From the NCBI RefSeq assembly GCF_003334785.1, contig NZ_QOWV01000002.1: 64,000 nt of DNA; one strand, 5' to 3'. This document shows, piece after piece, positions 24,662 through 25,089 of this stretch. This DNA is from Escherichia coli. GTDB lineage: Bacteria; Pseudomonadota; Gammaproteobacteria; Enterobacterales; Enterobacteriaceae. Every line of letters begins with the position of its first letter. The stretch's first letter is position 1. Below the pieces are notes generated by a model, which was not told the origin of the DNA, made no database searches, and saw only the letters and a program-made list of their open reading frames with translations. Made by a program: the position numbers and the translations under genes.

Positions 24662-24937
24662 ATGAACAAAGAAAATGTGATTACCCTGGACAATCCGGTC
24701 AAGCGTGGTGAGCAGGTCATCGAACAGGTCACGCTGATGAAACCCAATGCCGGGACGCTGCGCGGTGTCAGTCTGGCAGCGATCGCGAACTCCGAAGTCG
24801 ATGCACTGATTAAGGTGCTGCCGCGCATGACGGCACCGATGCTGACCGAGCAGGAAGTCGCCGCGCTGGAACTGCCTGACCTTGTGGCGCTGGCCGGTAA
24901 GGTGGTCGGTTTTTTGTCGCCGAACTCGGTGCAGTGA
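24662..24937 (+). CDS. E: Tail assembly chaperone gpE (91 aa)
   Basis: 91-aa ORF ending ...GKVVGFLSPNSVQ; contains the slippery run. Confidence 0.8.
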   Translation: MNKENVITLDNPVKRGEQVIEQVTLMKPNAGTLRGVSLAAIANSEVDALIKVLPRMTAPMLTEQEVAALELPDLVALAGKVVGFLSPNSVQ

Positions 24938-25089
24938 CGTTTCCGAAAAATCTGTCGGTCGATGACCTGATGGCGGATGTGGCAGTGATATTTCACTGGC
25001 CGCCATCAGAACTGTATCCCATGAGCCTGACCGAACTCATCACATGGCGCGAAAAGGCGCTCCGGCGAAGCGGAAACACGAATGAGTAA
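24662..25089 (+). CDS. gpE+E' frameshift product (-1 programmed frameshift at TTTTTTG, 24910-24916)
   Basis: T6G slippery sequence inside E; the -1 frame stays open to TAA at 25087-25089, overlapping the T start, analogous to lambda G/GT. Confidence 0.7.

What the first reader, a model, noticed from the sequence alone, without database searches (positions are those of the whole stretch)
24910..25089. Programmed -1 frameshift at TTTTTTG producing the gpE+E' tail chaperone
A T6G slippery run sits 7 codons before the E stop, and the -1 frame then stays open for 58 more codons, ending exactly where the tape-measure gene T begins. This is the conserved tail-assembly chaperone frameshift, analogous to lambda G/GT, and is invisible to a simple ORF track.
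Basis: partly seen in the sequence, partly recalled or inferred. Interest (0 to 1): 0.3.

Follow-up and report, generated by a model that had tools for sequence, protein, structure and literature searches.

The report
Known P2 phage tail-chaperone frameshift site
This is the well-known programmed -1 ribosomal frameshift that lets a P2-type prophage make two tail-assembly proteins (E and the longer E+E') from one start codon; it is real and intact here, but already described and experimentally shown in phage P2.

Summary
TTTTTTG lies at 24910-24916 in the phase T_TTT_TTG of gene E (24662-24937). The -1 frame is open from 24901 to 25089, and its end overlaps the ATG of the tape-measure gene T (25082) by 8 nt. 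The predicted fusion is 142 aa: Pfam Phage_TAC_7 followed by Phage_P2_GpE. The stretch is 99% identical to phage P2, whose GenBank record annotates the same site as the -1 frameshift producing gpE+E'.

In 19 divergent relatives (E 31-75% identical; eleven bacterial genera plus one uncultured gut phage) the second frame is always -1. An in-phase slippery heptamer always lies in the overlap. Its wobble positions are conserved even though the encoded residues vary. Four relatives have no start codon that could express the conserved E' core independently.

Two side observations came out of the work. U_UUU_UUG is a weak shifter in published E. coli reporters, yet P2 is said to shift more than lambda. 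Possible helpers are an upstream Shine-Dalgarno-like AGGTGG and a hairpin inside E'; both are only suggestive. An IS911-type element, with its own frameshift site, interrupts the prophage cox gene.

The parts
24087..24605 (+). FII, major tail tube gene (upstream neighbour that defines the chaperone position)
   Evidence: ORF. Annotated 'phage major tail tube protein' at the same coordinates in a genome that shares this tail module. gpFII in the P2 record.
24662..24937 (+). Gene E, the 0-frame product (91 aa tail assembly protein)
   Evidence: Pfam Phage_TAC_7 at residues 7-85. PHROG 103 'tail protein', E 4e-45. 97.6% identical to P2 gpE over residues 1-85.
24900..24905 (+). [quoted passage not shown]
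   Evidence: It fits the published criteria (AGGKG or GGNGG, 6-17 nt upstream; PMC4066793). Such an element is present in 14/20 relatives, against 2.8 expected from locus background and 7.5 expected given the protein and codon usage.
24910..24916 (+). Slippery heptamer T_TTT_TTG, the site of the -1 shift
   Evidence: for phase. Identical to the annotated P2 site. Kept in 80/80 close relatives, and an in-phase heptamer is present in 19/19 divergent relatives.
24916..25089 (+). E' segment: -1 frame read after the slip (57 codons plus TAA). With E codons 1-85 it gives the 142-aa E+E' protein.
   Evidence: Pfam Phage_P2_GpE at residues 104-139 of the fusion, E 2e-21. PHROG 1756 and 6416. The E' frame is conserved in relatives.
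24967..25009 (+). RNA hairpin inside E' (10-bp outer and 6-bp inner stem); role unknown and probably not a frameshift stimulator
   Evidence: It starts 50 nt 3' of the heptamer. It is more stable than synonymous recodings (z -3.2, chosen after the fact). The equivalent codons reach z below -2 in 7/20 lineages, against 5.8% of control windows.
25082..27529 (+). T, the tail tape-measure gene; its ATG overlaps the E' stop (ATGAGTAA)
   Evidence: gpT in the P2 record. 'Phage tail tape measure protein' in RefSeq.

Best explanation
This is the programmed -1 ribosomal frameshift of a P2-type (Peduovirus) prophage tail operon.

Most ribosomes translate E (24662-24937) to its TGA and make the 91-aa gpE. 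A minority slip back one base on T_TTT_TTG (24910-24916). In the standard model, tRNA-Phe in the P site and tRNA-Leu in the A site re-pair on UUU UUU. Those ribosomes then read GTC GCC GAA... in the -1 frame as far as TAA at 25087-25089 and make the 142-aa gpE+E'.

By analogy with lambda gpG/gpGT, both proteins share an N-terminal part that coats the tape-measure protein T. The E' extension, made in a fixed lower molar ratio, recruits tail-tube subunits, and neither protein stays in the virion.

Basis of each step. The sequence anatomy, family membership and comparative conservation are shown here. The frameshift itself and its efficiency are shown by others for P2, which is essentially identical in sequence. 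The tandem-slip mode and the chaperone mechanism are inferred.
For: - Anatomy and phase.
- 99% identity to P2, whose record annotates gpE+E' with a -1 frameshift at the same base.
- Pfam TAC_7 plus GpE on the fusion.
- tblastn with the fusion matches 419 phage records, 401 of them over at least 80% of the query; the 58 full-length rows listed match in two pieces, which searches show to be the two frames.
- In 19 relatives with E only 31-75% identical, E' is always at -1 and an in-phase heptamer is always in the overlap (TTTTTTG x14, TTTTTTT x2, TTTTTTC x2, GGGAAAG x1).
- The codon before the slip encodes G, T, S, L, P or D yet ends in T in all 19 T-type sites. The P-site codon is TTT even where TTC is the majority Phe codon.
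- L090, L094, L098 and L099 have no ATG/GTG/TTG at or before the conserved E' core (V.D..ADIA..FHW.P), so only a frameshift can express it there.
- From my own recollection of the abstract of Christie et al. 2002 (J Bacteriol 184:6522; not held in the library): E' is essential and fusion polypeptides gave about 10% frameshifting.
Against: - Nothing in the sequence argues against a frameshift.
- No expression data exist for this particular prophage. Its cox gene is interrupted by an IS, so it may be defective, and from general knowledge P2 late genes are silent in a lysogen.
- U_UUU_UUG is intrinsically weak in E. coli reporters (0.12% unstimulated, 0.25-0.77% with stimulators; PMC4066793 Table S3).
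- No structure is predicted at the classical 5-9 nt spacing (first 60 nt downstream, z +0.1). The source of the reported efficiency, and the exact slip mode, are therefore not explained.
- The chaperone role of gpE/gpE+E' rests on analogy and on a Pfam family name.
Confidence: 0.93

Rival explanations
1. The product and site are the same, but the slip mode differs. tRNA-Phe in the P site slips alone on T_TTT while the A site waits for the rare UUG-decoding tRNA-Leu (a 'hungry codon'), possibly helped by the upstream SD-like AGGTGG. The A site then reads UUU, so the junction is ...GFF-VAE... and not ...GFL-VAE...
For: UUG in the A site is a poor tandem shifter in E. coli: UUUUUUG gives 0.12/0.25/0.77%, against 0.33/0.45/10.2% for UUUUUUU and 0.12/0.89/7.6% for UUUUUUC. 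Even so, G is kept at position 7 in 14/19 relatives, although the residues encoded there in either frame are not conserved. UUG is a minority Leu codon in GC-rich hosts (general knowledge). An SD-like element is enriched upstream.
Against: Position 4 of the heptamer is T in all T-type sites, where TTC would be synonymous. Tandem re-pairing needs that base; a P-site-only slip needs it only if Phe is required at the junction. The U_UUU tetramer alone is also weak in reporters (0.14%, or 0.80% with a pseudoknot; Table S2). There is no direct evidence either way.
Confidence: 0.15
2. E' is an independent small gene, initiated at GTG 24934 (as RefSeq/PGAP annotates it) or at ATG 24970, and the T-run is incidental.
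For: The mechanical ORF list and PGAP both give a 51-aa ORF at 24934-25089. Other records call a 39-aa ORF from the internal ATG. The Pfam GpE domain (fusion residues 104-139) lies downstream of the ATG.
Against: [quoted passage not shown] Four divergent relatives have no start codon before the conserved core. The heptamer and its phase are conserved at wobble positions in 20/20 loci, which an incidental run would not be. From memory of Christie 2002, fusion polypeptides were observed for P2.
Confidence: 0.03
3. The frame change is made by RNA polymerase slipping on the T6 run and inserting one extra U in a fraction of transcripts, not by the ribosome.
For: A homopolymeric T6 or T7 run is present in 19/20 loci. 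Insertion of one U would give the same -1 frame, with a GFF junction.
Against: Transcriptional slippage does not depend on reading phase, yet the run is locked in the X_XXY_YYZ phase in every lineage. The Mannheimia relative has G_GGA_AAG at the equivalent site, which has no long homopolymer. From general knowledge, efficient slippage by E. coli RNA polymerase needs runs of about 8-9 or more.
Confidence: 0.03

Closest known systems
Bacteriophage P2 gpE / gpE+E' (GenBank AF063097, genes E and E+E'; Christie et al. 2002)
   Same: It is essentially the same locus. Identity is 99% over 461 nt, with the same heptamer, the same 37-nt two-frame overlap, the same 91-aa and 142-aa products and the same ATGAGTAA overlap with T. 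The E' peptide is 100% identical and E residues 1-85 are 97.6% identical.
   Different: There are only 10 substitutions in the 461 nt aligned, none within 138 nt upstream of the heptamer. The host prophage differs from canonical P2 elsewhere: it has an invertase-linked tail-fibre segment, an IS911-type insertion in cox, and a chromosomal site next to cyaR.
Phage lambda gpG / gpGT tail assembly chaperone frameshift (Levin et al. 1993; Xu, Hendrix and Duda 2004, 2013, 2014)
   Same: There are two overlapping ORFs between the major tail/tube gene and the tape-measure gene. A -1 slip occurs on an X_XXY_YYZ heptamer near the end of the first ORF. The result is a fixed low ratio of long to short product (PMC5009743).
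E/E' homologues of other Peduoviridae (Fels-2, KS14, Smp131, phiRSA1, Mana, Midge, phiCTX-like and others)
   Same: The architecture, the -1 offset and an in-phase heptamer are the same in all 19 examined. Several records annotate the joined CDS.
   Different: The last base of the heptamer varies (G, T or C), and one lineage uses G_GGA_AAG. The linker between the slip site and the E' core varies from about 12 to 27 residues.
IS911 / IS3-family OrfAB -1 frameshift (A_AAA_AAG)
   Same: It is another programmed -1 frameshift in the same window (1282-1288), found by the same scan.
   Different: The proteins are unrelated (transposase). The heptamer is efficient and, in IS911, has known SD and stem-loop stimulators (the IS911 reporter construct in PMC4066793). 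The fusion is the functional transposase and not a chaperone.

Membership tests
P2-type gpE / gpE+E' frameshifted tail assembly proteins (Peduoviridae) | Upstream ORF belongs to Pfam PF10109 (Phage_TAC_7: 'tail assembly chaperone proteins, E, or 41 or 14') | tested here: met
   residues 7-85, E 1.8e-11. PHROG 103, E 4e-45.
P2-type gpE / gpE+E' frameshifted tail assembly proteins (Peduoviridae) | The -1-frame extension carries Pfam PF06528 (Phage_P2_GpE) | tested here: met
   fusion residues 104-139, E 2.3e-21. PHROG 1756 and 6416.
P2-type gpE / gpE+E' frameshifted tail assembly proteins (Peduoviridae) | In-phase slippery heptamer (T_TTT_TTG in P2) inside the short region where both frames are open | tested here: met
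   (24910-24916; overlap 24901-24937). Identical to the annotated P2 site. Conserved in 80/80 close and 19/19 divergent relatives.
P2-type gpE / gpE+E' frameshifted tail assembly proteins (Peduoviridae) | Gene order FI-FII-E(E')-T-U-D within a P2-like late operon | tested here: met
   sheath 22884-24074, tube 24087-24605, E, T 25082-27529, U 27544-28023, D 28023-29186, ogr 29268-29486.
P2-type gpE / gpE+E' frameshifted tail assembly proteins (Peduoviridae) | E' has no translation start of its own | tested here: inconclusive
   In this window a GTG (24934) and an ATG (24970) exist in the E' frame, with no SD-like sequence before 24934. At family level, 4 of 19 relatives lack any start before the conserved core. 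[quoted passage not shown] Initiation itself cannot be tested in silico.
P2-type gpE / gpE+E' frameshifted tail assembly proteins (Peduoviridae) | The fused 142-aa protein is actually made and is essential for tail assembly | not testable with these tools
   Reported for P2 by Christie et al. 2002 (paper not held; cited via and my recollection of its abstract). There are no data for this prophage.
Lambda gpG/gpGT-type tail assembly chaperone frameshift (functional class of Xu, Hendrix and Duda 2004) | Two overlapping ORFs between the major tail (tube) gene and the tape-measure gene, the second in the -1 frame and reached through a slippery sequence near the end of the first | tested here: met
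Lambda gpG/gpGT-type tail assembly chaperone frameshift (functional class of Xu, Hendrix and Duda 2004) | Sequence homology to lambda gpG / gpT protein families | tested here: not met
   The Pfam scan of the fusion reported only 2 domains at independent E of 10 or less, TAC_7 and GpE. There are no PDB relatives by sequence or by profile. The relation to lambda is therefore analogy of arrangement, not family membership.
Lambda gpG/gpGT-type tail assembly chaperone frameshift (functional class of Xu, Hendrix and Duda 2004) | Fold shared with solved tail assembly chaperones (for example HK97, PDB 2ob9) | tested here: inconclusive
Lambda gpG/gpGT-type tail assembly chaperone frameshift (functional class of Xu, Hendrix and Duda 2004) | Both products bind the tape-measure protein, the long one also binds the tube protein, and both are absent from virions | not testable with these tools
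   Known for lambda (PMC5009743). For P2 it is inferred by analogy.

The most novel reading that the evidence does not exclude
The P2-type T_TTT_TTG site may not be a plain, stimulator-free tandem slip. In E. coli reporters this heptamer gives only 0.1-0.8%, yet P2 reportedly shifts more than lambda. The efficiency could depend on elements not yet recognised. One candidate is the SD-like AGGTGG 6 nt upstream, found in 14/20 lineages. Another is a P-site-only slip at a slowly decoded UUG codon, which would give a GFF junction. In addition, the hairpin centred on the IFH codons of E', enriched in 7/20 lineages, might protect or regulate the thinly translated E'-T junction.
Probability: 0.2. Interest if true: 0.35.

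Novelty: already known. Interest (0 to 1): 0.08.

Why it matters
For genome annotation, the site shows that two adjacent small 'tail protein' CDSs are really one recoded gene. The tail module occurs in 1,583 of 5,426 complete E. coli genomes. The RefSeq record opened splits it into two CDSs, and the 12 listed genomes carry the same two product names.

Biologically it is a textbook case. A fixed ratio of chaperone to extended chaperone is set by ribosome slippage and is needed to build a tail of defined length.

Nothing new about phage biology follows from finding it here. The only open point is a narrow mechanistic one: why a heptamer that is weak in reporters works well in its native context.

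Tried and rejected
- Downstream stimulatory structure at classical spacing. The first 60 nt after the heptamer fold no better than shuffles (z +0.1), in agreement with the literature. Rejected.
- The hairpin at 24967-25009 as a frameshift stimulator. It is real, and more stable than synonymous recodings. However, it starts 50 nt downstream, its distance from the heptamer varies among relatives, and the pairing register is not conserved. Rejected as a stimulator and kept as unexplained.
- Terminator-like hairpin plus T-run at 24889-24916. The stem is weak and G.U-rich, and the count in the region (3 found, against 1.9 +/- 1.3 in shuffles) is not above chance. Not pursued.
- SD-like enrichment. 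It is strong against locus background (14 observed, 2.8 expected). It is weaker once the protein sequence is held fixed (7.5 expected). By my count it is not significant at the level of independent lineages (about 8 of 14). Reported as suggestive only.
- The primary paper, Christie et al. 2002 (PMC135442), is not in the library. Its results are cited through secondary sources and marked where they come from memory.
- The related-loci scan of viral contigs returned only 98-99% identical loci, which were useless for conservation beyond showing 80/80 TTTTTTG. Divergent relatives came from tblastn against annotated phages instead.
- NCBIfam gave no hit for E or for E+E'.
- A Gin/Cin crossover-site consensus recalled from memory did not match anywhere in the window.
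- The E. coli genome that matched the 521-bp query (window 24600-25120) at 100% (NZ_CP148268) carries a different prophage at another site, so it is not the source of the window.

Full report
**1. What is in the sequence**

Gene E runs 24662-24937 (91 aa, TGA stop). TTTTTTG lies at 24910-24916. Position 24910 is the third base of a GGT codon, so in the E frame the run reads GG[T TTT TTG], the X_XXY_YYZ phase needed for tandem -1 slippage. Six sense codons follow before the stop.

The -1 frame is closed by a stop just upstream. It opens at 24901 and stays open to TAA at 25087-25089. The two frames therefore overlap for only 37 nt, and the heptamer sits inside that overlap.

Re-reading G24916 gives 57 further codons, VAELGAVTFPKNLSVDDLMADVAVIFHWPPSELYPMSLTELITWREKALRRSGNTNE, and a 142-aa fusion. 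The ATG of the next gene (25082; 815 aa) overlaps the E' stop in the sequence ATGAGTAA. The only correction is that E' overlaps the start of T by 8 nt and does not end exactly at it.

**2. Is it more than chance?**

I scanned every ORF of at least 80 aa on both strands and found 91 in-phase X_XXY_YYZ heptamers. The median -1 open length after them is 12 codons. Only three lie within 30 codons of the 0-frame stop with a -1 frame open for at least 40 codons:
- this site;
- A_AAA_AAG at 1282, in an IS911-type element, which is itself a known programmed frameshift;
- one in a spurious ORF that overlaps a 775-aa gene.

**3. Identity**

The stretch 24087-25600 is 98-98.6% identical to dozens of Peduovirus (P2-type) phages. 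Over 24640-25100 it is 99% identical to phage P2 itself (AF063097). From 138 nt upstream of the heptamer to the start of T there is a single substitution.

The fusion carries Pfam Phage_TAC_7 (residues 7-85) and Phage_P2_GpE (residues 104-139), and it matches PHROG tail families 103, 1756 and 6416.

The neighbours are sheath, tube, E, tape measure T, U, D and ogr. The prophage also carries P2's Old and Tin.

**4.

tblastn with the fusion found 419 phage records. 401 of them cover at least 80% of the query, and the 58 full-length rows listed match in two pieces. I fetched 19 that span E identities of 31-75%. They come from Klebsiella, Escherichia, Yersinia, Salmonella, Burkholderia, Ralstonia, Stenotrophomonas, Pseudomonas, Zymomonas, Mannheimia, Vibrio and Aeromonas, plus one gut metagenome phage.

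In all 19 the E' frame is -1 relative to E, and an in-phase heptamer lies in the overlap: TTTTTTG in 14, TTTTTTT in 2, TTTTTTC in 2 and GGGAAAG in 1. All 80 near-identical IMG/VR loci keep TTTTTTG.

The constraint acts on nucleotides and not on amino acids:
- The codon holding the first T encodes G, T, S, L, P or D but always ends in T.
- The P-site codon is TTT in all T-type sites, even in 63-67% GC hosts where TTC is the majority Phe codon.

The peptide encoded in the -1 frame is conserved, with the core V.D..ADIA..FHW.P...L.EL..WR..A..RS. In L090, L094, L098 and L099 there is no ATG/GTG/TTG at or before that core. Independent initiation therefore cannot be the family's mode of expression.

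Several depositors annotate the joined CDS (P2, Midge, Smp131, KS14, Mana). Others split it or omit E'. The RefSeq/PGAP record opened calls a stand-alone 51-aa 'GpE family phage tail protein' starting at the GTG that corresponds to window 24934. The same two separate product names head all 12 listed matches among the 1,583 of 5,426 complete E. coli genomes that carry this module.

**5. Literature**

- Lynch et al. [quoted passage not shown] They also report no downstream hairpin in P2 or its Burkholderia relatives.
- Lee et al. [quoted passage not shown] These numbers are identical to those found here.
- Atkins et al. [quoted passage not shown]
- The primary paper (Christie et al. 2002) is not held. 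I recall from its abstract that E' is essential and that fusion polypeptides gave about 10%.

**6. Mechanism: shown and inferred**

- Shown here: the signal, its phase, its conservation, and the identity of both protein halves.
- Shown by others for a virtually identical sequence: that the fusion is made by a -1 shift.
- Inferred: tandem slippage of tRNA-Phe and tRNA-Leu, giving the junction GFL-VAE as annotated; and the chaperone role, by analogy with lambda and from the Pfam family name.

**7. A loose end in the mechanism**

Sharma et al. 2014 measured all 64 heptamers in E. coli (PMC4066793, Table S3). The values are percent frameshifting with no stimulator, with IS911 stimulators, and with the IS3 pseudoknot:

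| Heptamer | No stimulator | IS911 | IS3 pseudoknot |
|---|---|---|---|
| UUUUUUG | 0.118 | 0.247 | 0.765 |
| UUUUUUU | 0.33 | 0.45 | 10.2 |
| UUUUUUC | 0.12 | 0.89 | 7.6 |
| GGGAAAG (lambda type) | 0.28 | 3.8 | 43 |

So P2's preferred heptamer is a poor shifter, yet P2 is said to shift more than lambda. I looked for context elements and found the following.

(a) There is no structure in the first 60 nt downstream (z +0.1).

[quoted passage not shown] This meets Sharma's published criteria. Such an element is present in 14/20 loci, against 2.8 expected from local background and 7.5 expected when the protein and codon usage are held fixed (P about 2e-4 if the loci were independent). The 14 fall into about 8 of 14 independent lineages by my count, so the signal is suggestive only.

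(c) A hairpin lies at 24967-25009 inside E'. It is stronger than 99.9% of synonymous recodings, but I chose it after seeing it. The equivalent 15 codons give z below -2 in 7/20 lineages (mean z -1.27), against 5.8% of 464 control windows (mean z -0.17). It starts 50 nt from the heptamer, at a distance that varies between lineages and with a shifting register. I do not think it stimulates slippage. It might protect or regulate the thinly translated E'-T junction.

(d) G at heptamer position 7 is kept in 14/19 relatives, although neither frame conserves the residue encoded there. That would fit a P-site-only slip at a slowly decoded UUG codon (junction GFF).

None of these points is established. 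Mass spectrometry of the junction peptide and a synonymous recoding of the SD-like element would settle them.

**8. Rivals**

- Independent initiation of E' is contradicted by the relatives that lack starts, by the conservation of the heptamer at wobble positions, and by the literature.
- Transcriptional slippage is contradicted by the strict phase-locking and by the GGGAAAG variant.
- A chance overlap is excluded by Pfam (E 2e-21) and by conservation across about 400 phage records.

**9. Verdict**

The feature is the already known and experimentally characterised P2 E/E+E' frameshift, carried on a P2-type prophage, so interest is low. The prophage itself may be crippled: an IS911-type element (959-2208, 3-bp ACA duplication) interrupts cox. 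The frameshift cassette is nevertheless intact.

Noticed in passing
window 959-2208 (heptamer at 1282-1288): A 1,250-bp IS911-type (IS3 family) element with terminal repeats TGAAGTGGT/ACCACTTCA. Its orfA starts at 1031 and its own programmed -1 frameshift heptamer A_AAA_AAG at 1282 leads into a DDE orfB open to about 2180. It is inserted, with a 3-bp ACA target duplication, inside the prophage cox gene, which is uninterrupted in other E. coli genomes. The prophage is therefore probably unable to excise.
   Followed up: yes
window 24967-25009: An RNA hairpin inside the E' coding region pairs the LMAD and PPSE codons (MFE -24.8 kcal/mol). It is more stable than 99.9% of synonymous recodings. Hairpins centred on the same IFH codons are enriched in 7/20 divergent lineages, against 5.8% of control windows. 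The function is unknown, and it lies too far from the heptamer, at too variable a distance, to be a classical frameshift stimulator.
   Followed up: partly
window 24900-24905: A Shine-Dalgarno-like AGGTGG lies 6 nt upstream of the slippery heptamer. SD-like motifs 6-17 nt upstream occur in 14/20 E/E' loci (2.8 expected from background; 7.5 expected given the protein). It could explain why a heptamer that gives only 0.1-0.8% in E. coli reporters is reported to work at several percent in P2.
   Followed up: partly
window 24934-25089, and RefSeq E. coli genomes generally: In the RefSeq record opened (NZ_CP148268), PGAP annotates E' as an independent 51-aa 'GpE family phage tail protein' starting at a GTG, and not as a ribosomal-slippage CDS joined to E. 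The 12 listed matches carry the same two product names. The module is present in 1,583 of 5,426 complete E. coli genomes, so this looks like a widespread annotation gap.
   Followed up: yes
window 20647-22824: Canonical P2 lacks this arrangement. A serine DNA invertase gene (22225-22824, PHROG 125, E 1e-101) sits next to an oppositely oriented alternative tail-fibre tip (21661-22203, minus strand) and an alternative tail-fibre assembly gene (21059-21661, minus strand). This looks like a Mu/P1-style invertible host-range switch. A Gin/Cin crossover consensus recalled from memory did not match, and no clear flanking inverted repeats were found.
   Followed up: partly
window 6816-9512 (minus strand): The prophage carries the classical P2 anti-phage genes Old (586 aa, PADLOC Old, E 1e-214) and Tin (253 aa, PADLOC Tin, E 9e-98) at the usual hotspot between gene A and the portal gene.
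   Followed up: yes
window 29268-29677: The prophage's right end (ogr, 29268-29486) is followed directly by the CyaR/RyeE sRNA gene (29592-29677, minus strand, Rfam 100.7 bits) and then a 453-aa chromosomal gene. From my recollection, this is where E. coli K-12 carries the ogrK P2 remnant, so this is probably a recurrent P2 attachment site.
   Followed up: no
window 24613-24633: A perfect 10-nt palindrome, CCGGTCAGCC-a-GGCTGACCGG, lies in the 56-nt gap between the FII stop and the E start, with no T-run after it. It may be an mRNA hairpin that lowers or stabilises expression between the abundant tube protein and the chaperone genes. It was seen by eye in the sequence and was not analysed.
   Followed up: no
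window 43037-43179, 43366-43514 and 59328-59366: There are two tandem Sib antitoxin RNA genes (Rfam 142 and 149.5 bits, minus strand) and a JUMPstart element (57 bits, plus strand) in the chromosomal part of the window. They are unrelated to the finding.
   Followed up: no
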